Part shown: piece after piece, positions 6,432 through 52,443 of the stretch
How the letters are laid out: every line of letters begins with the position of its first letter
Position numbering within the stretch: the stretch's first letter is position 1
Translations under genes and position numbers: made by a program
Origin: Octopus vulgaris
Lineage: Eukaryota
Reading direction: 5' to 3'
Assembly (NCBI GenBank): GCA_951406725.2
Contig: OX597815.1
Location: 69,378,001 to 69,442,000, forward strand
DNA length: 64,000 bases
The notes under the pieces: model-generated
The model's input: only the letters and a program-made list of their open reading frames with translations
Databases searched by the model: none
Told to the model about the DNA's origin: nothing

Positions 6432-6893
6432 CTGGTGCATCATCAAATTTCTCTTTAATTTTACGGTTTGTCATACAGCATAATTTGTTAGTTAAATTGA
6501 CATACACGTGTTTCTGCTGCACAGAGTATGTGCAGTCGCATAATCCAATATAATTTTCTGTGCACTTTCATTTAGAGTCCTTCAACTAGCGTGGTTCGAA
6601 GTGAACTGAGTTTATATATTTGTGGCTAGTTTAAGATACCAAGGTCAGCATAAGGATAAATTTTACAACCATATCAGGTTTAAGCTAACCTCCGGTCACT
6701 TTTTTTTGTATTTTAAAATAGCCACAAATAAATAAACTCAGTTCGCTTCGAACCGTTGAAGAACCTTGAATAAAGGTACACAGAAACTTATGCTCGGTTG
6801 CATGTGCAGCAGAAACACGTGTTAGTCAATTTAACCAGCAAACTATGCTCTATGGCAAACTGTAAAATTAAGAGAAGTTTGATAATGTACCAA
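6432..6893. repeat. Diverged fold-back with ~200-bp arms carrying a relic HHR half (GAAAC-acgt-GT)
   Basis: 6432-~6640 is the imperfect reverse complement of ~6705-6893, e.g. acacgtgtttctgctgcaca / tgtgcagcagaaacacgtgt. Confidence 0.75.
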
Positions 6894-7279
6894 CGAGCAA
6901 AACGTCCCACGTCCAATGGACGGTACTGAGTTGTCAAACATTTAAACCAAATTTTCTCAAAACAACTTGTCCGACCGTCCCATAGGCCACCCCTTTGAGA
7001 AACACTGATTTAACGTAAATTTGAGACACCGTGCATTTTTCTCGCGTACGCGCAGTATCGATCGCAACAGCTGATGTACTTGCGCGTACAAATGCACGTT
7101 CCCATGGCTTTATTGATCGCATTCTCACCTGGAATCAATTTTTGTAATTTTTTCAAGACTTATACATGTCCTGATACTGACAGTATCTACATATCAAATT
7201 TGAGCGCAATCGGATGGAGGATGCCCGAGATCCTAGAAGACACACATACAGACAGACAGAACGGATTTTTTATAATAGA
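6894..7279 (-). mobile_element. Non-autonomous Helitron
   Basis: Minus strand starts A|TCTATTATAAAAAATCCGTTCTGTCTGTCTGT; 3' hairpin CGTCCA-T-TGGACG, ends CTCG|T (CTRR variant); inserted in an AT dinucleotide. Confidence 0.7.
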
Positions 7280-11132: not shown

Positions 11133-12749
11133 TTTAAAAAATCAAATCTCAGAACAGCAAACGATTTCAATCAATTAAACACTACGGATATTACTTTGAA
11201 AACAATAACTTTATCAAATCTTTACAAGCGAGTAAAATTTTTCGTAATCAGTGATTAAAACGTTATAAAGGTCAACTTGTTTGACCTCCGGTACAAGAAA
11301 AACGTTAAACTTTCTTGACTATTGAGTGAAGTTTAACTAGCATATACATAAAAGCAGAACTAAATAAAAACCACCGTAAGATCAATGTAACTTTAAGAGG
11401 GGGATTCAAGTATTACTTTATTTGCTTTTGTAATACGCCCAAATATTAACAAATATTGAAAAATTATAATAATTTTCGTGAGTAATGGCAAAGTATTTAT
11501 AAGAACTGAAATAATCAAGTTTCAGTAAAGAAAACAGTTTCAGTTAAGGAATCACACAAACACTACAGAGAAAATTGTAAATTTACAGAAAATTGTAAAT
11601 ATATATAATCGTAACAAACGAATATAGGATTTTCGTAATGAGCGACCCAATCGTTATAAAGATCAATGTGTTTTGCCTCTGACAGAAGAAAAAAGTCCAT
11701 TTTTTTTTGTTAATGGACGAAACTTTGATTAGCTTATAAAAGCAGAACTAAGAACCATCTTAAGATCCACGCAATTCAAAGAGATGGGTAATACTTTATT
11801 TGCTTATGGAATAAAAAAAACAAGCTAATTTTGAATATCATAATAATTTTCGTAATTAGCAACCGAAAATATAAACAATTCATTGAATTGTATAGCAAAC
11901 AGTTAGATTCTATTAAAAAAATTTTATAAACAAATACGAGGGACAAACATCTATAAACACAATTATACTTAATCTTGAGGAGCGACTAAAACTTTTAAAC
12001 GACAATGGTATTACCCACTATTAAAAAGAAGAGTACTTTTTGTTGGAAAATAATGGTAGTTGGATTAAATTATAAACGCAGAATTATCAAAGAGCCATCA
12101 GAAGATTCAAATAGCTAAAAAGAGAAGTATTCAAGTATTATCTAATCAAAAATATTAGCTAAAACTAAAAAATTATTATAATTTTCCTAATTAACGGGAA
12201 AATATTTAGAAAAATTGACACAATAATCTCTTGGTTAAGAAAATAGTTTCATTTTATGAAAGAATTATTCGCACAAACTCTAGGGACATACCTCTGTAAA
12301 CACAATAACTACATCTAATATCAAAAAAATTAGGAGAATTTTTGTAATCAGTGACTGAAACCATTTCAAGGTCGATGACATTGGCTACGATAGCAAAAAG
12401 TGAATTTTGTTTGTAATTGACCGTAGTTTGATGAGCTTATGAAGGCAGAACAAGGTAAGAAACATCAAAAGATCATTGCAGTTCAAAGATGACCTAATTT
12501 GGTTACGGAATACTCAAGTAACATTACTAATTATTGAAAAATTATAATAATTTACGGTCATGTATCTATAAGAATTTAGACAATGAAATTTCGGTACAGA
12601 AAACAATTTTAATTTATTAAAGAATGAATCATCCTAGAGGAATAACTGTAAGCTCAACGTTTTATCTAATGTTGAAAAATGAGAACAAAATATTCGTAAT
12701 CAGTGACCGAACCATTATAAAGATCGACTGGTTTCGCCTCCGATACAAG

Positions 12750-14279
12750 AAAGACATTCGAGGCCAGAGCTATGACAACGGTAGTAACATACTAGGTCAC
12801 ATCTCTGGAGTACGAGAAAGACTGTTGAAGGATTTTTCAAGAGCTTTCTTTGTAGTCTGTGCATATCTCAAATATAATCTTTTATTTAGAGATGTGACCA
12901 AGTGTTGCTCGGGCGCTTCAACAGTCTTTGAAATTTTGCAAAGGATCTGCGTATTGTTCTCATCATCAACTAAGAAGTGGGTAGTTTTTAAGAAACACGT
13001 ACCTGACTTATCGGTGAAATCCTTGAGCGAAACAAAGTGGGAATGACAGATTGATAGCGTTAAAGCTATCCATTACCAGCTTGTGATGCGCTCGTGGAAG
13101 TATCTGAGGTAACTGATGAGCCCAAGGTAAAAGCAGAAGCAGAATCTTTAGGAAACCAACAAAACACTACAAAGTTTTAGTTTCTCTGATACTTTGGCAT
13201 GTAGTACTTTTTAACGTTAACTTTGTAAACAAGGAACTACAGGGTAAAACAAAGGACATTGATGAAGGTATGAAGTCATTTGAAAAGATTTTATCATGGT
13301 TAAGAATCTATAGAGAGTGTAGTTTTGATGATGTCTTATTAGGCGCAAATGAATTGACTGAAGCTGTTGAATTACCACCGGAGTTAAAAGCAATTACGCA
13401 GAAGGAAAAGAAAATTTTTATACGACACAAAACATGAAACTGTAGATGACCCGAAAGAAGTATAAAATGTTCAGTGCTTCAACTTCGTGCTAGACAAAGC
13501 TATTATGTCTTTAGAGTCTAGATTTCAGCGCTTAAAAGCCACGTAAAACTATCTGGATTTTAAAATAAGTTCTAGCGCTTACAAAAGGCAGAAATTAGGA
13601 AGCACACTGCAGACTCTGAAGTAACTTTATCTGAAACCACACTAAAACACAGCACTGACGGAGGGGGTAGTTACTGAAACAACTAAAGACGTGCATGGTT
13701 ATCTGTTGGCCAAAGAACTTGAAGTTTTGAAACCTTTTCTTCCTTTCGCTACCATTAAGCCTCAATATCCGCTGGAATACCTGCCAACACACAATCGATT
13801 CACGGAATTTCCTAATGTTTTTATTGCTTTGAAGATCTACTTAACAATGCCTGTAATAGTCGCATCAGGTGAAAGAAGTTTTTCAAAACTAAAACTGGTT
13901 AAACTTGCCTACGGTCAACAATTCACAAAAGAAACTAAATAATTTGGCGATGCTATCTATAGAAAGTGATATTACAAAAACCATTGACTTTGAAATGATT
14001 TTGCAAGACTTCTCAGATAAAAAAAACAAAAAAGTCTGTTTTTAGAAAACCTATTCACAAACAGTATGTCAGCAAATATCTTGACTTGTAATAAAACATT
14101 AAAATTTTCTAGTTCTAGTATATTATTGTTGCTAAGGTTGGAACTTCAAGCTTTCAATGCTTTTTGGCTGGGACTGGCGTAGTGCATGAAGCATAAAACA
14201 TAAACCTTCAGCTTTTGTAGAGCAGAGGGCCCCACTACAAATCTTTAAATGGACCCCGCACTTCCTAGCGTCGGCCCTG
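12750..14279 (+). mobile_element. 5'-deleted hAT transposon remnant (ZMYM1-like transposase pseudogene)
   Basis: RGQSYDNGSN, LSETKWE, and dimerisation motif FPNVFIALKIYLTMP..ASGERSFSKLKL; frameshifts and stops; right end cctagcgtcggccctg. Confidence 0.85.
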
Positions 14280-14964: not shown

Positions 14965-14995
14965 CTATACAATATGTTACATTACTCGGTAGTCA

Positions 14996-15058
14996 AGATA
15001 AAACTCTGAGTTTCAGATGCCGAAGTGGAAATCCACAACACCATCTCTTCGGTTATCT
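14996..15058 (-). ncRNA. Type-I hammerhead motif in the PLE 3' UTR
   Basis: agataa-CCGAAGA-gatg...catc-t-GAAAC-tcaga-GTT-ttatct; 6-bp stem I; C at core position 4. Confidence 0.6.
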
Positions 15059-15255
15059 GGCTATTTGAAAACGTTATGAAAAAATATTATGAAAAAATAC
15101 CGTTAAAAAAGAAGGGAAATTACTCTGTTATAACTCTGCTTTGCCTGCGTACTTATACATCGCTCGCATTTTTCGTCATAAAAATTATATAAAAATACAT
15201 AAAAATATATAAAAATATATAAAATCTTCTTGGGACATAACACAGAAAGCATGTT

Positions 15256-16443
15256 CTATCCGTTTTCTTTAGGGGACCAAAAACGTAACAGAAATTTAGT
15301 CACATGTGGGCATGATCCGAAAAGCTCTGTCCTTCTATTTAGACATGTGGTAGGGTCTAAGCTGCTTTTCCAGATAAGCCATCTCTCCATGTCGCATAAA
15401 CCGCACCTTCCGCTGCCGTTAGTATAGGGCTTACATCTGGCCAAAATCTTCCATTGTATGTTATAATCGACACCTTTATCTCTTAAAGACCAAATATGAT
15501 TGGATAATTGTGTCGCTTTTCTTTTGTTCCAGTACCTAAAGCTCAAAGTGTGGTTATTGAACCTGGCCTTGAAATTACCCTCTGTCAGGCCCACGTATTT
15601 CTTCGTCGAAACGGTGTCTTTAGTGGTTATAGAGTTTACGGTAGCTTCATATATGATGGTCTTGGACATGCAAGCTCCATTTAGCGGGCACAATTCTTTA
15701 TTCCTGCATGAACAGCTGTTTTCTTCTTGTGTTCTTTGTATGTTATGATTGATTATGTTTTTAAAATTGGTAGTTGAACTAAAACTAATTTTTAAATTGT
15801 GTCTATTGAAGAGTTTCCTATAAGCATGGTTAACTGGAAAATGTCTATCTATCAGTGCTAGGAAATATTTACCTATATTGAAGGCCACCTCGGGTGAGTA
15901 AGGGGGCGTAAACAAGATGACCTTCCTATTTCTATTATTCCTTTTCCTTACTGTTGGGCTGGTGATAGGTGTATATTTTATTTTTTCGCTAAAACCACTA
16001 TCTTTTAAAGCTTTATTATAAACTGGGGCAACGCTATTGAAGATGTCCTCATTAGATGAGAGGCTAGAAATCCTCTTACTAATATTTTTAACTAAATTTT
16101 TGAATACTATAGGGGGATGGCATGAACCTACATTAATATAACTTAGTCTATCATTGGGCTTCCTATAAGGCTTATAAATATTACTATTAAGATCTAAGGA
16201 AACGTCTAAGAAATTGACAACCGTCAGGTTAGTGTCTATAGTTATACTAAGTCCGAAGTGTTTCATTAACTGGATAATATCCTTCCTAAAACGATCTTGT
16301 GCTGGTCCATTTGTATTAGCTGTTAAGGCGAGGGCATCATCTTTGTAGATGGCGAAATGTACGTTAGGGAATGTCTTACCGAAGGTATCTAGGAGAAAGA
16401 GTCCAATTAGATCACAGATGCCTGCCCCATCATAAGAACCCAT
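15256..16443 (-). CDS. PLE RT C-terminal half plus GIY-YIG endonuclease, uninterrupted frame
   Basis: MGSYDGAGICDLIG, YKDD, NFLDV, CxCx5Cx5C linker (CSCRNKELCPLNGAC), IIY...YVG, CGLC...LNRRTELFGSCPH; the first ~25 aa of the tracked ORF come from the fold-back. Confidence 0.85.
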   Translation of the reverse strand: MGSYDGAGICDLIGLFLLDTFGKTFPNVHFAIYKDDALALTANTNGPAQDRFRKDIIQLMKHFGLSITIDTNLTVVNFLDVSLDLNSNIYKPYRKPNDRLSYINVGSCHPPIVFKNLVKNISKRISSLSSNEDIFNSVAPVYNKALKDSGFSEKIKYTPITSPTVRKRNNRNRKVILFTPPYSPEVAFNIGKYFLALIDRHFPVNHAYRKLFNRHNLKISFSSTTNFKNIINHNIQRTQEENSCSCRNKELCPLNGACMSKTIIYEATVNSITTKDTVSTKKYVGLTEGNFKARFNNHTLSFRYWNKRKATQLSNHIWSLRDKGVDYNIQWKILARCKPYTNGSGRCGLCDMERWLIWKSSLDPTTCLNRRTELFGSCPHVTKFLLRFWSPKENG

Positions 16444-16901
16444 ATGATGGGGCAGGCATCTGTGATCTAATTGGACTCTTTCTCCTAGATATATAAACAT
16501 TCTCCTATATATAAACATTCTCCTAGATATATAAACATTATTATTTCTAAATATCTCATATATTTAGTGTCAAATGATGACAGCATTTAATACAAATGGA
16601 TATTGCGGTGAGTTAACAGAACCATGAGAGCGTCGGAAAATTTGCCTTGCAGCATTTGTTCGCTTCTGGTGATTCTGAGAAAAAGAGATGAACTCAGTAC
16701 CGTTCATTCGTTTTCAACTAAAGTACGGATTCTTTGTTTTCGAAAAGTGTTTCTCCTTGTCATCGTCGCTGTCATCAAAGCACCAATAGGTGCCGAGTAC
16801 ATTGTTACAGCAACAGATAATAATCAAGCGAGCACTATGAAACATACTTTCCCTTTCTTTCTTTCTTTCTTTCTTTCTCCTTCGCTCTAACTCAGACACA
16901 C

Positions 16902-26005: not shown

Positions 26006-26700
26006 GAGAAAAAATAAAATATAATAATAATAATAATAATCGCTCAAAAAACTAGAATATCTACAATTCCTTGTGAGTATTTTAAATTGCCTTGAAAAGA
26101 AGTTGAAAATCTTGCATATCCACAATTTTCTCTGGCCGAACACACAAACGATCAGCTTTTAAAATTTTTGAAACTTTAATACCAACAACTTTCTGTGAAT
26201 ACTTGCCCTTTCCTGAGTATTCGAAAATGTAAACGCTCCTTTTAGCACAAGAACACTACAGTTCCCTCTGGCCGAACACACAAGTGGCAAGTGTCTTCTA
26301 CTATAGCCTCGGGCCGACCAAAACCTTGTGAGTGGATTTAGTAGACGGAAACTGAAAATTTTAAAAAATCTTTAACTACAATTCTCAGTAAAACTTTTGC
26401 TCTTCTTTTCTCCGTGACTACTTGAATATGTAAACGTACCTTTTATTACAACAACATTATTAAACGCACCTTTCATTCCAACAACACTATTAAACGCATG
26501 ACAAAAATTTCCTCCAAAATAAGTTGAAAATCTTACATATCCACAATTTTCTCAGGCCGAACACATTTTAAAAACTTTGAAACTTTAGGAGATAAACAAC
26601 TGCCAATATATACAAACTGCACAATAACGAAAAGTAAACCACGACAAAACCTATACAAAGGCACGAAAAATTCAACGATGTAAATAATATATATATTATA

Positions 26701-27311
26701 TCTCTGAGCGAGGTATAAACAGTAGCTGCACGACATCGTGAAGTATATTTGCCACTTAAATGTGGCTAACCCTTAAGGTTGGATGCTGCTATAGCTTGTA
26801 GCCCCAGGAGGACACCTCCTCCAGCTGGCTATTGACACACTTTCTGTGCCCTATCAGTATTTGCAAAGGGAAGCCATCCTTCCCATCATCAACCTGTATG
26901 ATACACACGGACTCGAGTTTCTTGGTATTGATCCGTCATCATATACTTCACGATGTCGTGCAGCTACTGTTTATACCTCGCTTAGAGATTTATTTTTGCT
27001 TGTTTACATATTTTCCATATCAGTGACTTTTCGTCACTGGAAAAAGGATATATATTTGAAAAGGGAGGCCTACATTTCATTGACAACCGGTGATTGTCAC
27101 GCGCTGATGACGGGTCAATATCTAGAAACTCGAGTCCGTGTGTATCATAAAGGTTGAAGATGGGAAAGATGGCTTCCCTTTGCAAATACTGATAGGGCAC
27201 AGAAAGTGTGTCAATAGCCAGCTGGAGGAGGTGTCTTTCTGGTACTACAAGCTACAGTAACATCCACCCCTATGGGTTAGTTACATTTAAGAAGCAAATA
27301 TACTTCACGAT
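26701..27311. mobile_element. HHR-bearing non-coding element: inverted partial arm plus a ~358-nt unit with terminal redundancy, in TA-rich flanks
   Basis: 26736-26940 is inverted to 27106-27311; 26701-26749 is inverted to 26941-26988; atatacttcacgat occurs at both 26941 and 27298. Confidence 0.8.
27098..27142 (+). ncRNA. Minimal type-I hammerhead ribozyme
   Basis: cacgcg-CTGATGA-c gggt caat atct a-GAAAC-tcga-GTC-cgtgtg; intact core, palindromic stem III, GUC site. Confidence 0.75.
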
Positions 27312-30980: not shown

Positions 30981-32585
30981 CTACAAGTTAACGAAGTATA
31001 GAGAAGGGCAGAGAGAGCAGGAGATGCAGTAGATGATATTAGTAGAAGTGCAGGTGAAGGAGTCGGTGATGTGATAGGGTCGATGATGGGTGCCGGTGGG
31101 GAGGGTGGTGTTGAAGAAGTAAAGGTAAGTGCAGCAGCGTGGGCGGGAGCAGGGGAATGAGCAGGGTTGGGAGGTTGGATTAGGGAAGAAGCTGTGGACC
31201 AAGAGGTCTCGTAGGTTGTAGGCTCGTTTGAAGGAGGGGAGTGGTCGGACTGGAGTCGCCGGAAGGCTCGGAGAATGGTGCGATGGAGAGGTAGGGTGGT
31301 GGGTTGGTAGGTGAGGGGAAATAGGAGGCGGGAGACGGCGGTGCGGGTTCGGGGGAGAGAGCAGATGCACGGCCGGTGTGGATAGTGGTGAGGGGATATC
31401 CACGTAGGATGAAGTGGCGAGCCATGAGTTGAGACTGAGTCTTAGTCATGGTCGTCACTACAGAGCCTGCGTAGACGAAGGAATTGGGAATAGGGGATGA
31501 AAAGCTTGGTGTGTTTAGGGTGGGAGGAAGAGAAGTTGAGGTATGAGTGTGAGTTTGTTTGTTTGTAGTGGATGGAGGTGGTGAGAGTGGAGTGATGAAT
31601 GCTGACCGAAATGTCAAGAAAGGAGACAGAGGTGTCTCCTTTCTAGTACAGGAGAAGTAGAGGGCAGGATGGAAAGATTTGACAAAAGAGAGGAAGGTAT
31701 CTAGATGTTCGCCTGAGAGTGAGGTGGCACCGATACAGTCGTCAATATAACGGCCGTATAGTTCGGGAGTGGGACCAGTGAAACTTGAGAATATTTGAGC
31801 CTCAACGTAGCCAACGAACAGGTTCGCATAGTTGGGGCCCATTCTCGTTCCCATGGCCACTCCCAAGAACAGCTGGTAGAAATCACCCGCGAGCGAGAAG
31901 CAGTTGAGTGAGAGGACAAGTTCAACCAGACGAACGAGTGTGGATGTGTCAGGTTGGAGGTTGGGTCGAAGGTCAAGGAAATGTTGGTGTGCATACAGCC
32001 CCTCGTGGTGAGGGATCACCGTGTAGAGGCTCTCGATGCCGAGGGTGAAGAAAAGTTTAGAGGAGCCAGGAGGGAAGGAGAAAGAGTTGAACAAACGAAG
32101 CGCGTGGTTGGTGTCATGGATGTGAGAGGGGAGGGAAGTCACTAGGGAGGCAAGGACACGGTCAAGATACCTGGAGATGAGTTCGGTGGGGCAGTTTCAG
32201 GCGGAGACGATGGGGAGGCCCGGGGTTGTTAGGCTTGTGGGTTTTGGGGAGGAAATAAATGGTGGGGTGCGAGGGGTGCGGACAATGAGGTTGGAGGCGA
32301 TGGGGAGGGGAAACGGGAGGAGGAGATGAGGTCATAGATAGTGGAGGACACAGTCTGTTGGTAGCTGTGCGTGGGGTCAGAGGGCAGAGGGCAGTTGAAG
32401 GGGGTTTCTTGAAGTTGGCGGAAAGCTTCGGCCTTGTAGAGGTCCGCGCGTTACACCACCACGGCTCCACCCTTGTCAGCCGGTTTTATAATGATGTCAG
32501 TACGGTGTCGGAGACATCGAAGGGCCGAGAGTTCGGCTGGGGAGATGTTTAGATGACGGGGACGCCTGGAAAAGTTAAACCAGTC
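30981..32585 (-). mobile_element. Penelope-like element remnant (Neptune-like), GC-rich
   Basis: [72 protein letters not shown]; truncated inside GIY-YIG. Confidence 0.85.
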
Positions 32586-37771: not shown

Positions 37772-37990
37772 GGAGATGCATGGCTTAGCGGTTAGGGTGT
37801 TGGACTTACGGTCGTAAGATTGTAGTTTCCATTCCTGGACCGGGCAATGCGCTGTGTTCTTGAACAAAACATTTCATTTCACGTTGCTCCAGTCCACTCA
37901 GCTGGTAAAAATGAGTAATCCTGTGACGGACAAGCGTTCCCTGCAGAGGGGAGTATATACGCAGAGAAACTGGGAAACCGACTCTATGAT
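37772..37990 (+). mobile_element. SINE family C
   Basis: gcatggcttagcggttagg...tttcacgttgctccagtccactcagctgg. Confidence 0.75.
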
Positions 37991-38033
37991 CTTTATAGAG
38001 TAATGTGGACTTACCATATATATATATATAAAT

Positions 38034-38224
38034 AAAATTATAATTTAGGGTATCTAAGAGATACCTCCACGCTGGAAATAGCAGCCAAAACTTGTCTCTA
38101 AAACCACATTAAATGTTCATACAACACCAGGTACGGTATGAACATTTAATGTGGTTTTAGAGTCAAGTTTTGGCTGCTATTTCCAGCGTGGAGGTAACTC
38201 TTAGATACCCCAAATTATAATTTT
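38034..38224. repeat. Near-perfect 89-bp inverted repeat with 13-nt loop
   Basis: 38034-38122 versus 38136-38224 with about 3 mismatches; (TA)n nearby. Confidence 0.9.
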
Positions 38225-38332
38225 AATAATAATTATTACCTTTGAAGGTTTTTATTCTCATGCTGGTCATTTGATAAGATTGATAATTAAATTAACGATC
38301 TTATCCTTATTTATATAAATTTCGTAAACTCT

Positions 38333-44218: not shown

Positions 44219-44561
44219 AATGCTGAGCAATATTCTGATACATACAAACACACACCTTTTAGAAGATATATTTGCTTGCCATGTGATTTTTCAAAATTTT
44301 TGTTTAGTCTTCCTTTCCTTATTTCTCTCCTCCCCTTCCATTTCTTCCTTCCCCTTTTCCTTTTCCTCCTCCTCCGCTTCTCCCCTTCTTTGCTACCGTC
44401 ACCAGCACCTAGTTTTTATTATGTTCATAATTTATATAATAAATGCTACTTTATAGAGAAATAAACGTTCTCTATCACAGTCAAATCGAAGTTCCTGCCT
44501 TACGTTGCGTAATATTAAATAACTATAGGAAGAAAAAGAAAATGGCAATGATAATAATAAT

Positions 44562-46160
44562 TCTCTGTATCATAGGCACATGGCCTGAAATTTTTGGGAA
44601 AGGGGCCTGTCGATGTAATCGACCTCAGTGTTCAACTTGTACTTTTTTGATCGATCACGAAAGGATGAAAGGTAAAGTCGACCCCGGCGTAATTTGAACT
44701 CAGATACATAAAGACGGACGAAATGTGCCTAAGCATTTCGTCCGGCGTGCTAACGTTTCTACCAGCTCGTCGCCTTTTAACTAATAATGATAATAATGAC
44801 CTTTTTACCATAGGCACAAGGCTTGAAATTTGGAGGGAAGGGGTGAGTCGATTACATCGACCCCAGTGCGTAACTGGTACTTATTTAGTCGACACCGAAA
44901 GGATGAAAGGCAAAGTCGAGTTCGGTGGAATTTGAACTATACCGCTAAGCATTTCGCCAGGCTTGCTAACGATTCTTATTTCTTTATTACCCACATGAGG
45001 CTAAACATAGAGGGAACAAACAAGTACAGACAAAAGGATTAAGTCGATTACATCGACCCCAGTGTGTAACTGGTACTTAATTTATCGACCCCGAAAGGAT
45101 GAAAGGCAAAGTCGACCTCGGCGGAATTTGAACTCAGAACTAACGACAAACGAAATACGGCTACGCATTTCGCCCGATGTGCTAACGTTTCTTATTTCTT
45201 TATTGCCTACAAAGGACTAAACATAGAGGGAACAAACAAGGACAGACAAAGGGATCAAGTCAATTAGATCGACCCTAGTACGTAATTGGTGCTTAATTTA
45301 GCGACCCCGAAAGGATGAAAGGCAAAGTCGACCTCGGCAGAATTTGAACTCAGAACGTAAAGACAGACGAAATACCTATTTCTTTACTACCCACAAGGAG
45401 CTAAACACAGAGGGGACAAACAAGGACAGACACACGGATTAAGTCGATTACATCGACCCCAGTGCGTAACTGGTACTTATTTAATCGACCCCGAAAGGAT
45501 GAAAGGTAAAGTCGACCTCGGCGGAATTTTACGGCTACGCATTTCGCCCGGCGTGCTAACGTTTCTGCCAGCTCACCGCCTTAACTACTACTACTATTAC
45601 TACTACTAATAATAATAACAACGGCTTTAAATTTTTGTGCAAGGACAGCAGTTTTGAGAAAAGGACTAAGTCGATTAAATCGACTCCAGTACTCAACTGG
45701 TACTTATTTTATCAACCCCGAAAGTACAAAAGGCAAATCAACCTCGGTGGAAATTTGAACGTAAAGACGGATGAAATGTAGCTAAGTATTTCGCCCGGCG
45801 TGCTAACGATTCTGCCAGATCGCCGGCTTTATAAAGATAATAATTATAATAAGTGCTTTGATGCAGTACTTGGCAGTGGCTCCATTGGTTTCTGACCTTA
45901 ACCTATTGAAAGAGTTATCATGCGCCTGTTTTGTGTTGGTGTAAAAGATGGGCTACAGAATTGCTTGTCAGTTGTTTGATTAGCCATGTGTTGTGAAGGA
46001 TTATTTGGGGTTTGAATAAGTAATCTCTGGAAACCCAGGTGCTCAGCTGGTACTTATTTCATCGACCTTGAAAGGATTAAAGTCAAAATTGGTCTAGGCA
46101 TTATTGGAACTCAGAATAAAAACAGCCAGAAGATATGCCGCTCGACATTTTTTCCGACCC
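44562..46160 (-). mobile_element. Cluster of about seven co-oriented SINE family B copies
   Basis: gaaaggatgaaagg.aaagtcgacc recurs near 44659, 44897, 45093, 45309, 45493, 45720 and 46070. Confidence 0.85.
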
Positions 46161-46202
46161 GAAGATTGGCTAAACGGTGGCCTAGAAGAGGTTAGAAAGG
46201 TC

Positions 46203-46932
46203 AATTCAGGACAATTGTTTCGCTATTAATAAATTATGTAATTTTACTCACATAACATATCTTGTCCTGAATTAATCTGCATTTTTGTTATTCTTTATTT
46301 GCCCTGTTCGTTTACGCTAATAGTTGTGCTAACTTTCATCGGAGACAATTCTTCGTGGCTGAAACCAGCGGATCTATTTTTAGTGCTAGAGTAGACCACA
46401 TAGTGGTCACTCTCTTATATTTACATATAAAATTTATTGTATTCCTGGTTTTTATGCACTAAGCCACTTGGTGTTGAATTGATGGTACTATTAAATTAGT
46501 ATCCAATTTTCTCACACTTATTAGTAGATTGTAATTATACTGCATCTAATTTTTGATGTAGTATCTGTTTCCGTGAATTTTGGCGGGCTTTGGCGGGGGC
46601 ACTTGAATTATAACGGCGAATGCAATCGACTGAACCGCATGTGTGTTTATCGTTATGGTAAAATCTGGCATGCGATTGAGTAAATTGTATTCTAGACAAA
46701 TTCAGCCGAGGAGTCACAGATATGTTATGTGAGTAAAATTACATAATTTATTAATAGCGAAACAGTTGTCCTGAATTAATCTGCATTTTTGTTATTCTTT
46801 ATTTGCCCTGTTCGTTTACGCTAATAGTTGTGCTAACTTTCATCGGAGACAATTCTTCGTGGCTGAAACCAGCGGATCTATTTTTAGTGCTAGAGTAGAC
46901 CACATAGTGGTCACTCTCTTATATTTACATAT
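46203..46932. mobile_element. HHR-bearing element: 504-nt unit with ~167-bp identical terminal direct repeat and a short inverted arm
   Basis: 46262-46428 equals 46766-46932; 46203-46260 is inverted to 46720-46777. Confidence 0.8.
46699..46777 (+). ncRNA. Type-I hammerhead motif with long stem II
   Basis: aattcag-CCGAGGA-g...c-GAAAC-agtt-GTC-ctgaatt; 7-bp perfect stem I; C at position 4. Confidence 0.65.
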
Positions 46933-46935
46933 ATA

Positions 46936-47092
46936 GGAGTGGCTGTGTGGTAAAGTAGCTTGCTTACCAATCACACAGTTCCGGGTTCAGTCCCACTGCG
47001 TTGCACCTTGGACATGTGTCTTCTACTATAGCCTCGGGCCGACCAAAGCCTTGTGAGAGGATTTGATAGACGGAAACTGAAAGAAGTTCGTC

Positions 47093-47150
<58 letters not shown>

Positions 47151-47377
47151 ACACATACACACATGTATGTATGTATTTGTGTGTATGTTTGTACCCCCGA
47201 CATCGCTTGACAACCGATGCCGGTGTGTTTACGTCCCCGTAACTTAGCGGCAAATGGGACCGATAGAATAAGTACTAGGCTTACAATGAAAAAGTCCTGG
47301 GGCCGATTTGCTCGACTAAAGGTAGTGCTCCAGCATGGCCGCAGTCAAATGACTGAAACAAATAAAAGAATAAAAGA

Positions 47378-47378
<1 letters not shown>
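46936..47378 (+). mobile_element. SINE family A, full length
   Basis: Full motif set. Confidence 0.85.
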
Positions 47379-47412
<34 letters not shown>

Positions 47413-47413
<1 letters not shown>

Positions 47414-48672
47414 TGGGTTGCCCGGAAAGTTCGTGCCAGTTTATAGTAGCCTTACCTTTCGACTTATTTTAGAACATGGTTGAGTCCATAAAATAGAATT
47501 TGACTACACCTCCATATAGAGCACAGTTTAAGCTATCTTTTCATGGAAGAAGGTTTATGTTCTTATAACCTGTGTTAATTCTGTGACCCTTTAAAATGGA
47601 AGATAAGAAGTTCATTTTCGGCACTTGATGCTTTTCTTTTTCAGTAAAGTAAAAAATGCCTCGCAAGCAACCAAAGAAATATGCGCAGTTTACGGTAATG
47701 TTTCTTTGTCCGAAAGAACTGTACGGAAGTGGTTCGCAAGGTTCCGAGCTGGTGATTGTAGCCTTATTGATAAAGAACGATCACGCAGACCATCCACTAC
47801 AGATGATGATCAAATCAAGTCATTAATTGAGAATAACCCACATTGCACAACCCGAGAATTGGCAGAAAGCCTCAACCTATCAAAATCCGTCGTTCATGAG
47901 CACCTGGTAAAGCTTGGGTACACAAATCGCTAAGATGTTTGGGTACCACACGAATTGAGTGAGAAGAACCTTTTTGATCGCATTTCCATCTGTGATTCGC
48001 TTTATAAACAGAATGAAAACGCGCCTTTTTTAAAGCAAATCACAGATGGAAATGTTCACAGAAAGCGATCCGGGAGTAAGCGACATGAGCCACCCTTAGC
48101 CACCCCATAAGGGGGTCTTCACCCTAAAAAGATCTTGCTTTGTGTCTGGTGGGATTGGAAAGGAATTCTGTACTATGAGCCTCTCCCAAGTAACCAGACA
48201 ATTAATTCTGAGAAATACTGCACACAACTGGACGAGTTAAAAGCAGCAATTCAAGAGAAACGTCCAGAATTGGCCAACAGGAAAGGTGTTGTTTTCCAAC
48301 ATGATAATGCAAGACCGCACGTTTCTTTGGGAACCAGACAAAATTTGCTGCAGCTTGGCTGGGATGTGTTACTCTACCCTACAAATTCACAAGATATTGC
48401 TCCTTCGGATTTCCACTTATTCAGGTCTCTGCAGAATAGTCTTAATGGTAAAAATTTCAATTCCTTGGATGACGTAAAAAGATACCTTGATGAATTATTT
48501 GCCATGAAACCACCTCAGTTCTGGGAAGAGGGTATTTTCAAGTTAAAGGAAAGATGGAAACACACTGTGCAACAAAATGGTTCATAGTTGGTTGATTAAA
48601 AATGTAATGGCAAGTATTTATTGACCTTTTTGTTTCCTTTAAAAATCGGCACGAACTTACCGGACAACCCAA
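47413..48672 (+). mobile_element. Full-length mariner element (mellifera-like TIRs), inactivated transposase
   Basis: TIRs ttgggttgcccggaaagttcgtgcc / ggcacgaacttaccggacaacccaa; TA flanks; HTH, WVPHEL, HDNARPH, DIAPSDFHLF; stop at 47931 and an internal deletion. Confidence 0.95.
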
Positions 48673-48723
48673 TATATATAAACATATATATATACTTACA
48701 TATACATATAACTCTCTTTCTCA

Positions 48724-51536: not shown

Positions 51537-51738
51537 GTATATGTATATGTATATATATATTTTTATATATATATATAGGCGGTAACTTTTTCTTGCCACT
51601 ATATCATGGCTGTTCTGTAAAGAACTATGTTACTACATTTTAACCCTAGGAAAACGTCTTTTCCAGCTGGTTAACGACACACTACCTGTGTCCAATATAT
51701 TGTAAGTGAGCGAATCACTCCCCTCCAACTTGGCAAAA

Positions 51739-51783
51739 CCAGTAGACCATGGTTTCTGGATCTTTACCCTTCATCGGCACAGG
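51739..51783 (-). ncRNA. Minimal type-I hammerhead, left arm (C at position 4)
   Basis: cctgtg-CCGATGA-a gggt aaag atcc a-GAAAC-catg-GTC-tactgg. Confidence 0.6.
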
Positions 51784-52173
51784 ACACCTGCCTGCTAGTG
51801 ATGGCATTCAATCGTCCCTACTCGCAATATATAAGCAGAAAAGCGGCAAACAGCCGTTGATCTCGTAACGAGCAAAATAGCTCTTCTAAAATCTCTAAAC
51901 GAGTTGCAGCAATACTAGACGGTAACGCTTTTTTCTTTTGTCACTATACCATGGCTGTTCTGTAAAGCACTATATTACTACATTTTAACCTCAAGAAAAC
52001 GTCTTTTCCAGCTGATTAACGACACACGACCTGCGCCCGATATATTTTGAGTAAGGCATCGAGATTTTAGAACCAGCTACTTTGCTCGTTACGAGACTAG
52101 CGGCTGTCTGGTGCCTCTATGTTTATATATTGTGAGTAGGGACGATTGAATGCCATCTCTAGCAAGCAAATGT

Positions 52174-52218
52174 CCAGTACTGATGAAGGGTAAAAATTCA
52201 GAAACCATGGTATACTGG
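52174..52218 (+). ncRNA. Minimal type-I hammerhead ribozyme, right arm
   Basis: ccagta-CTGATGA-agggtaaaaattca-GAAAC-catg-GTA-tactgg; perfect 6-bp stem I, palindromic stem III. Confidence 0.8.
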
Positions 52219-52443
52219 TCTTGCCAAGCTGGAGGGGAGTAATTTGCTCCTTTACACACAATATACCGGACACAGTTTGTGTGTCGTTAACCAGCTGGAA
52301 AAGACGTTTCCTGGGGTTAAAATGTAGTAATATAGTTCTTTACAAAACAGTCATGGTATAGTGGCAAGAAAAAGTTACCGTCTAGTATTGTTACTAATAT
52401 CTCGTTTAGAGATTTTAAAACTAGCTACTTTGATCGTATATAT

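What the first reader, a model, noticed from the sequence alone, without database searches (positions are those of the whole stretch)
46203..46932. Third HHR element type: 504-nt unit whose repeat starts almost at the predicted cleavage site
Seen: two identical ~167-bp direct repeats 504 nt apart. The first starts (ttgtc|ctgaatt) 5 nt before the equivalent of the GUC cleavage site of the HHR at 46699-46777. A 58-bp inverted copy of the HHR 3' half sits directly upstream. The sequence is unrelated to the 27 kb and 52 kb family. Inference: a recent insertion (identical repeats) whose boundary is set by ribozyme cleavage, showing that several independent families share this architecture.
Basis: partly seen in the sequence, partly recalled or inferred. 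Interest (0 to 1): 0.75.

Follow-up and report, generated by a model that had tools for sequence, protein, structure and literature searches.

The report
Decayed retrozyme copy with inverted arm
This is one mutated copy of a common 504-base non-coding animal repeat that carries a hammerhead self-cutting RNA motif; it was likely pasted in by a Penelope-type jumping-gene enzyme from an uncut RNA, so it is an ordinary new member of a known class (retrozymes), and its edge lies near, not at, the predicted cut site.

Summary
There are two exact 168-nt repeats 504 nt apart, a 60-nt inverted arm (59/60 identical), and a type I hammerhead motif (Rfam 32.7 bits, gathering score 34).

Contigs from public runs show a repeated family with a head-to-tail ~504-nt unit, mostly with an intact hammerhead. 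The window's copy is decayed: U4C in the core and a mispaired helix II. The 'repeat' is just the overlap of a 1.33-unit insertion.

The direct part starts at -5, not +1, and the inverted arm (-53 to +7) runs across the cut site, so both were most simply copied from intact RNA (a multimer or a religated circle). Arm and direct part are contiguous on the unit with a 12-nt overlap, the geometry of twin priming. Partial tandem plus 5' inverted copy is the published Penelope-like layout.

Verdict: new member of a known kind (non-LTR retrozyme, likely mobilised by a Penelope-like element). One oddity remains: both breakpoints fall in the ribozyme's 3' strand (about 2% by chance, noticed after the fact; not seen in the 27 and 52 kb elements).

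The parts
46203..46262 (-). Inverted arm: copy of unit positions 46718-46777 (-53 to +7 around the cut); holds the ribozyme's 3' half with the family's palindromic CAAUUG helix III, and no catalytic core
   Evidence: 59/60 identity; geometry
46262..46429 (+). First copy of the 168-nt segment; starts in the middle of loop III, 5 nt before the cut equivalent (after 46266)
46267..46770 (+). Predicted 504-nt cut-to-cut monomer; 35% GC, no long reading frame, strongly self-paired when folded as a circle
   Evidence: six frames; -146.4 kcal/mol, z -5.8, 0 of 60 shuffles as stable; 2 of 41 control windows score stronger
46430..46765 (+). Remaining 336 nt of the unit, present once; joined to the 168-nt segment in the same way in divergent family contigs
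   Evidence: junction 46429|46430 bridged by contigs with 13-19 differences in X2, X3, X4 (table 8)
46699..46777 (+). Type I hammerhead: helix I 46699-46705/46771-46777, core 46706-46712 (U4C at 46707), helix II 46713-46758 with a distal hairpin, GAAA 46759-46762, helix III 46763-46768, predicted cut after 46770
   Evidence: Rfam; helix I pair probabilities 0.52-0.98 in the isolated motif; family alleles
46766..46933 (+). Second, identical copy of the 168-nt segment; its 3' end (+163 from the cut) lies in an AT-rich stretch ending in TA repeats and is the inferred first priming end
46934..47375 (+). Right flank: very high-copy SINE-like repeat, whose other copies are preceded by TA runs
   Evidence: self-BLAST to 9961, 24077, 28567; loose ends
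46033..46202 (+). Left flank: degenerate copy of a second SINE-like family (aligns to about 46156); the last ~45 nt are unassigned
   Evidence: family D3; alignments

Best explanation
The element is a 1.33-unit copy, plus a short inverted arm, of a repeated non-coding 504-nt unit with one type I hammerhead motif, and it was likely inserted by a Penelope-like (PLE) reverse transcriptase/endonuclease acting in trans on an uncut RNA. Steps: (1, shown) the unit is a head-to-tail family repeat whose other copies mostly carry an intact hammerhead; (2, inferred from other animal retrozymes) family RNAs self-cleave and circularise; (3, inferred) a PLE enzyme nicked AT-rich DNA, primed at +163 and copied 672 nt, through one whole ribozyme and 5 nt past a second cut site; (4, inferred) the other target strand primed internally at +7 and copied 60 nt, and the two cDNAs were joined head to head, which left the 12-nt overlap (twin priming); (5, sequence shown, effect predicted) this copy is probably a dead end, with one mutated core and an arm that would sequester the ribozyme in a read-through transcript. 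The template was a multimer or a religated circle; these cannot be told apart here.
For: Unit continuity in independent runs: 510, 750, 127 and 16 contigs laid on the single unit in X3, X2, X4, X13. Junction 46429|46430 is bridged by 31 or more nt on each side in 3 of the 32 listed pieces (1397 not shown). A 'goes back 504' joint appears in 3 of 4 runs. The whole ribozyme is covered by single contigs (X3 46684-46785; X13 46680-46775). Family alleles give the canonical ribozyme: T at 46707 in all laid depth of X1, X2, X4, X7 and 97% of X3; C at 46714 in 96-100%; T at 46715 in 6 of 6 runs; A at 46765 in 95-100%. Helix I covaries in a divergent subfamily: a loose end at 46681 ends in GTTTTGG plus CTGA, and 46772 T>C and 46776 T>A keep all 7 pairs with 2 changes on both sides (the two halves come from different contigs, linkage inferred). 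Geometry: arm -53..+7, direct part -5..+163, overlap 12 nt; L1 twin-priming overlaps have a median of 12 bp (PMC12016303). PLE insertions are described as partial tandems with an adjacent inverted 5'-truncated copy (PMC8557442; PMC3846280), and hammerhead pairs 100-700 bp apart on opposite strands are described (PMC4209133). In vitro a PLE protein cut and extended both strands, preferred AT-rich DNA, started inside the RNA and used uncleaved RNA (PMC11167929). A PLE-like RT/endonuclease fragment with its own hammerhead-like motif lies in this window.
Against: No autonomous partner sharing sequence with this unit was found; only a 13-nt match to the 15 kb PLE tail. The left flank is not a TA run, no target-site duplication is visible, and no empty site was seen. 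The arm's 3' end is 156 nt from the direct part's 3' end, unlike the 38-53 nt offsets in the 27 and 52 kb elements. No contig spanning either junction of this insertion was listed, and no opposite-strand joint was listed on the unit in 4 runs (contigs show presence only). Only one complete hammerhead is present, so the locus fails the 'active retrozyme' definition of Li et al.. A search for Penelope-like with twin priming returned 1 paper, a review that I did not read, so that step is borrowed from L1. Cleavage and circles are untested.
Confidence: 0.7

Rival explanations
1. Cleavage set the boundary. The RNA was cut at the upstream ribozyme; reverse transcriptase reached the 5'-OH end at +1 and jumped to the 5' product still held in the ribozyme fold, copying 5 more bases, and the nick also exposed the site for second-strand priming.
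For: Both breakpoints lie in the ribozyme's 3' strand, -5 at the centre of the palindromic loop III and +7 at the last base of helix I; a 12-nt overlap straddles one fixed site of a 504-nt unit with probability about 0.02. The three inverted arms in the window have 5' ends within 53 nt of a cut site (-53, -32, +40).
Against: It needs two separate jumps across the nick, one for each cDNA. None of 6 5' ends in the window is at +1. The coincidence was picked after the fact and is absent from the 27 and 52 kb elements. Among the 24 loose ends listed (169 not shown) none marks a junction at the cut. The tested PLE used uncleaved RNA, and no RNA-seq ends were found at its cut site.
Confidence: 0.12
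2. An older solo copy was rearranged at the DNA level: replication template switching or repair duplicated 168 nt and made the short fold-back, or gene conversion homogenised the repeats.
For: Both repeat copies share alleles that are rare elsewhere (C at 46293/46797, G at 46344/46848), so the duplication postdates them. If such changes arose after insertion at 1-3% per copy, 168 identical bases would have probability 0.035 to 4e-5. The left end is atypical for a PLE insertion.
Against: The duplicated segment continues into the unique part exactly as in other family copies, so the structure reads as a natural 1.33-mer. The arm carries the family's A where the forward copy has G (46765). Shared alleles are equally explained by inheritance from the source RNA; C46707 and T46714 occur in other contigs (X3, X13).
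Confidence: 0.12
3. The identical repeat is an assembly artefact.
For: No listed contig spans this locus's junctions; the best run holds 0.55 of the sampled words; C at 46715 was seen in 0 of 6 runs. PLE tandem and inverted structures are known to trouble assemblies.
Against: The unit order is reproduced by independent, divergent contigs, and two other elements in the window have the same layout with diverged arms. An artefact could at most have changed the number of units.
Confidence: 0.04
4. It is the terminal remnant (pseudo-LTR) of an autonomous PLE whose reading frame is missing here, and not an independent 504-nt family.
For: PLE pseudo-LTRs carry type I hammerheads, and retrozymes are argued to derive from them.
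Against: Overlapping contigs close the 504-nt circle without an inserted reading frame, and all six frames have frequent stops. The 168-nt segment recurs after only 504 nt.
Confidence: 0.02

Closest known systems
Metazoan non-LTR retrozymes (Cervera and de la Pena 2020, PMC7229834; Li, Clavereau and Pollet 2026, bioRxiv 10.64898/2026.07.22.740005)
   Same: Non-coding, low-GC, head-to-tail unit with one type I hammerhead, self-paired circular fold, many divergent copies, PLEs in the same genome.
   Different: The unit is 504 nt, above the ~170-400 nt of the first paper but inside the 51-972 bp of the second. This locus has 1.33 units and a single, mutated ribozyme. An inverted arm was not described in the parts of those papers that I read. 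Expression and circles are not shown here.
Endonuclease-positive Penelope-like elements and their pseudo-LTRs (Arkhipova 2013 PMC3846280; Craig 2021 PMC8557442; Cervera 2014 PMC4209133; Frangieh 2024 PMC11167929)
   Same: Partial tandem plus inverted 5'-truncated copy, type I hammerhead with a short palindromic helix III, 3' end downstream of the ribozyme in AT-rich DNA.
   Different: No RT or GIY-YIG reading frame. The arm ends at +7 and not near the main 3' end; no 30-40 bp tail and no target-site duplication were recognised.
L1 5' inversions by twin priming (PMC12016303)
   Same: Inverted and non-inverted cDNAs contiguous on the template, with a short overlap (12 nt here; published median 12 bp).
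   Different: No poly(A) tail, no target-site duplication, a different enzyme, and a template that must hold more than one unit or be circular.

Membership tests
Non-LTR retrozyme | Type I hammerhead in the repeat unit | tested here: met
   Rfam 32.7 bits; canonical core and helix II alleles dominate in family contigs; this copy is mutated
Non-LTR retrozyme | Head-to-tail unit of about 50-1000 bp | tested here: met
   504-nt unit; junctions bridged in independent contigs
Non-LTR retrozyme | At least two consecutive complete hammerheads (definition of an 'active' locus, Li et al.) | tested here: not met
   One core at this locus; it is a monomer-type derivative, not an active locus
Non-LTR retrozyme | Non-coding, GC below 45% | tested here: met
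   35% GC; frequent stops in six frames
Non-LTR retrozyme | Highly self-paired monomer | tested here: met
   z -5.8 and -6.2 as a circle; 2 of 41 control windows are stronger, so the support is moderate
Non-LTR retrozyme | Self-cleavage | not testable with these tools
   No assay; U4C is reported to lower activity considerably in vitro (PMC3088659)
Non-LTR retrozyme | Expression as circular RNA | not testable with these tools
   Contigs cannot show RNA ends, strand or circles
Autonomous Penelope-like element | RT plus GIY-YIG reading frame | tested here: not met
   No reading frame in the unit
PLE-type insertion | Partial tandem with adjacent inverted 5'-truncated copy | tested here: met
   against the description
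PLE-type insertion | AT-rich or (TA)n target | tested here: inconclusive
   Right end lies in an AT-rich/TA stretch; the left flank is not TA; no empty site seen
PLE-type insertion | Optional 30-40 bp tail, or target-site duplication | tested here: inconclusive
   Neither recognised here; offsets of 38 and 53 nt are seen in the 27 and 52 kb elements
PLE-type insertion | Sequence shared with an autonomous PLE's pseudo-LTR | tested here: inconclusive
   None with the one PLE tail in the window; no genome available

The most novel reading that the evidence does not exclude
The hammerhead itself, through its fold or a transient nick held together by helices I and III, marks where the first cDNA stops and where the second DNA strand primes. 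The ribozyme would then shape Penelope-driven inversions, giving the motif a role in integration and not only in RNA processing.
Probability: 0.15. Interest if true: 0.6.

Novelty: new member of a known kind. Interest (0 to 1): 0.25.

Why it matters
As a single copy it adds one more retrozyme family. Its layout supports the proposed but undemonstrated link between animal retrozymes and Penelope-like enzymes, and it indicates that the copied RNA was intact at both ribozyme sites. What the hammerhead does in PLE biology is described as unclear (PMC8557442). If inversion points cluster at the ribozyme across the family, that question becomes testable from genome sequence alone.

Tried and rejected
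No whole genome is held, so copy boundaries could not be mapped.

No RNA holder was listed. X13 is only guessed to be RNA; its 16 contigs were used for sequence continuity, not as evidence of expression. Depth sums were not used as copy numbers.

The first read-laying included the flanking SINE, which swamped the joint and loose-end tables.

A 23-nt degenerate ribozyme pattern found 0 matches in metagenome and viral contigs. No earlier scan finding lay near this place or resembled the unit.

The idea that the left flank is a diverged continuation of the arm or of the unit was rejected: 112-436 of 1000 shuffles score as well. The idea that the last 55 nt of the flank are the SINE's 3' half was not supported (651-943 of 1000).

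In one search I set the helix II coordinates wrongly, so those probabilities were dropped. The helix I and arm values stand: arm duplex 0.99 in 46150-46933; without the arm the ribozyme's own helix I forms at 0.001 (46262-46933) or 0.26 (46262-46790).

Pfam did not recognise the 15 kb reading frame; one of three scanned homologues matched RVT_1. An RNA-editing signature in the copy's private changes was considered and dropped, because the changes are of mixed types.

Full report
Observation. The two direct repeats are exact over 168 nt (46262-46429, 46766-46933) and 504 nt apart; a 60-nt inverted copy of 46718-46777 lies at 46203-46262 with one mismatch. Rfam places a type I hammerhead at 46700-46776 (32.7 bits, gathering score 34, E 3e-4 for the window). 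The predicted cut follows C46770, so the first repeat starts at -5. The element shares no sequence with the 27 kb and 52 kb hammerhead elements. The window is repeat-rich animal DNA; that it looks like an octopus-type genome is my recall of the SINEs plus the wording of earlier AI notes, not a tool identification.

The unit is a family repeat. Twenty of 24 listed public runs, from 10 studies, hold part of the stretch. On one unit without duplication (46357-46860), 510, 750, 127 and 16 contigs were laid from X3, X2, X4 and X13, mostly 80-99% alike. Contigs with 13-19 differences bridge the end of the 168-nt segment into the unique part in three runs (3 of 32 listed pieces; 1397 not shown), a 'goes back 504' joint appears in 3 of 4 runs, and single contigs cover the whole ribozyme. 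The overlapping pieces close a ~504-nt circle with no reading frame in it. The 'direct repeat' is therefore the overlap of a 1.33-unit copy. The cut-to-cut monomer is 35% GC and folds as a circle at -146.4 kcal/mol (z -5.8, 0 of 60 shuffles); 2 of 41 control windows fold more strongly.

The family ribozyme is canonical and this copy is decayed. Other contigs read T at 46707 (core CUGAGGA) in all laid depth of X1, X2, X4 and X7 and 97% of X3, while one X13 contig keeps C. They read C and T at 46714-46715, which pairs helix II fully (T at 46715 in 6 of 6 runs), and A at 46765 in 95-100%, giving the palindromic CAAUUG helix III. A short palindromic helix III is the mark of ribozymes that act as dimers (PMC4209133). 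A divergent subfamily keeps all seven helix I pairs with two changes on both sides, though the two halves come from different contigs. U4C is reported to lower activity considerably in vitro (PMC3088659). In a transcript entering from the left, the arm is predicted to pair with the ribozyme's 3' half (mean probability 0.99) and abolish its own helix I. The locus is probably inactive.

How it was inserted. On the unit map the arm covers -53 to +7 and the direct part runs from -5 to +163 of the following unit, so the two are contiguous with a 12-nt overlap. Both contain the intact GUC/C junction, so the simplest template was uncut at that site: a linear multimer or a religated circle. This is the geometry of twin priming, where L1 overlaps have a median of 12 bp (PMC12016303). 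Partial tandems with an adjacent inverted 5'-truncated copy are standard for Penelope-like elements (PMC8557442; PMC3846280). A purified PLE protein cut and extended both strands at AT-rich sites, began inside the RNA, and did not need ribozyme cleavage (PMC11167929). The window holds a PLE-like RT/endonuclease fragment (15256-16563, minus strand; 490 homologues) followed by a hammerhead-like motif, but it shares no sequence with this unit, so the partner enzyme is unknown. The 27 kb (357-nt unit) and 52 kb (348-nt unit) elements also have arms nearly contiguous with their direct parts (52-nt overlap, about 24-nt gap), but at about +160 to +215, not at the ribozyme.

Results against this reading. 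The left flank is not a TA run and could not be assigned; no target-site duplication or empty site was seen; no listed contig spans this insertion's junctions, although the flank 45927-46068 is matched exactly in X2 and X7. Both repeat copies share alleles that are rare elsewhere, which fits copying from one source RNA but also a later local duplication. The twin-priming step is borrowed from L1: a search for Penelope-like with twin priming, inverted and truncated returned 1 paper, seen only as a listing.

Recency is supported relatively (1 mismatch in 228 positions, against 81-90% identity in the other two elements). A cleavage-set boundary is not supported literally: 0 of 6 5' ends in the window lie at +1. 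What survives is that both breakpoints fall in the ribozyme's 3' strand, at the centre of loop III and at the last base of helix I, a roughly 2% coincidence noticed after the fact. A nick crossed by template jumps, or stalling at the fold, is not excluded; I give it about 0.15.

Comparison with what is known. It works like, and at family level fits, an animal non-LTR retrozyme (PMC7229834), a class argued to be non-autonomous derivatives of PLEs (bioRxiv 10.64898/2026.07.22.740005). This locus fails that paper's definition of an active element (two complete ribozymes). Among the 20 listed of 22 papers from a search on octopus, hammerhead ribozyme, retrozyme and Penelope, only PMC8557442 mentions octopus, once; I found no description of this family, but consensus libraries and supplements (Craig et al. 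file S1; the preprint's tables) were not seen. Earlier unchecked notes on this genome describe many similar two-armed retrozyme families; they are leads, not support.

What I read: the preprint, parts 1-3 of 5 (abstract to discussion); PMC11167929, parts 1-2 of 4; PMC4209133, part 1 of 4; PMC7229834, passages plus sections 14 and 17; passages only of PMC8557442, PMC3846280, PMC3088659 and PMC12016303.

Verdict: a real, probably young but decayed retrozyme insertion with a Penelope-type footprint; new member of a known kind; interest 0.25.

Noticed in passing
window 14994-16563 (minus strand): PLE-like RT/GIY-YIG-type reading-frame fragment (435 codons; 490 homologues, one named from a sea cucumber; Hydra clade is my inference) with a 106-nt fold-back at 16386-16491 and a hammerhead-like motif at 15060-14994 (core CCGAAGA), ending in TA repeats.
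   Followed up: partly
window 26697-27311: 357-nt hammerhead unit; direct part +162 to +175 of the next unit, inverted arm -32 to +213; the two 3' ends differ by 38 nt, like the PLE tail.
   Followed up: partly
window 51576-52437: 348-nt hammerhead unit with two arms between TA runs, 3' ends at about +172 and +225; arms 81-85% alike.
   Followed up: partly
window 46523 and 46459 (laid contigs): Loose ends running into TA repeats behind 46523 (12 contigs in X2; a shorter AT-rich end in X4 and X13) and before 46459 (X3). They may mark a preferred family 3' end near +257 to +267, about 100 nt beyond this copy's end.
   Followed up: no
window 46923/46968 (table 5): An opposite-strand joint in X1, X2 and X3 joins this unit near +153 to an inverted SINE start: probably another locus ending close to this copy's 3' end.
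   Followed up: no
window 30984-32196 (minus strand): Second retroelement RT fragment (RVT_1, E 0.002), PLE-like by recalled motifs, truncated at its 3' end with no hammerhead found.
   Followed up: partly
window 44547-46156: Array of 7 copies of a SINE-like repeat spaced 184-350 nt apart, directly left of the element.
   Followed up: no
window 47378-48709: Mariner-like transposon remnant with inverted ends and a Transposase_1 match at 48111-48584.
   Followed up: no
window 37801-38304, 6553-7056, 12601-13104: Control windows with unusually strong predicted folds (z -14.0, -7.5, -5.5); probably hairpin repeats, not examined.
   Followed up: no
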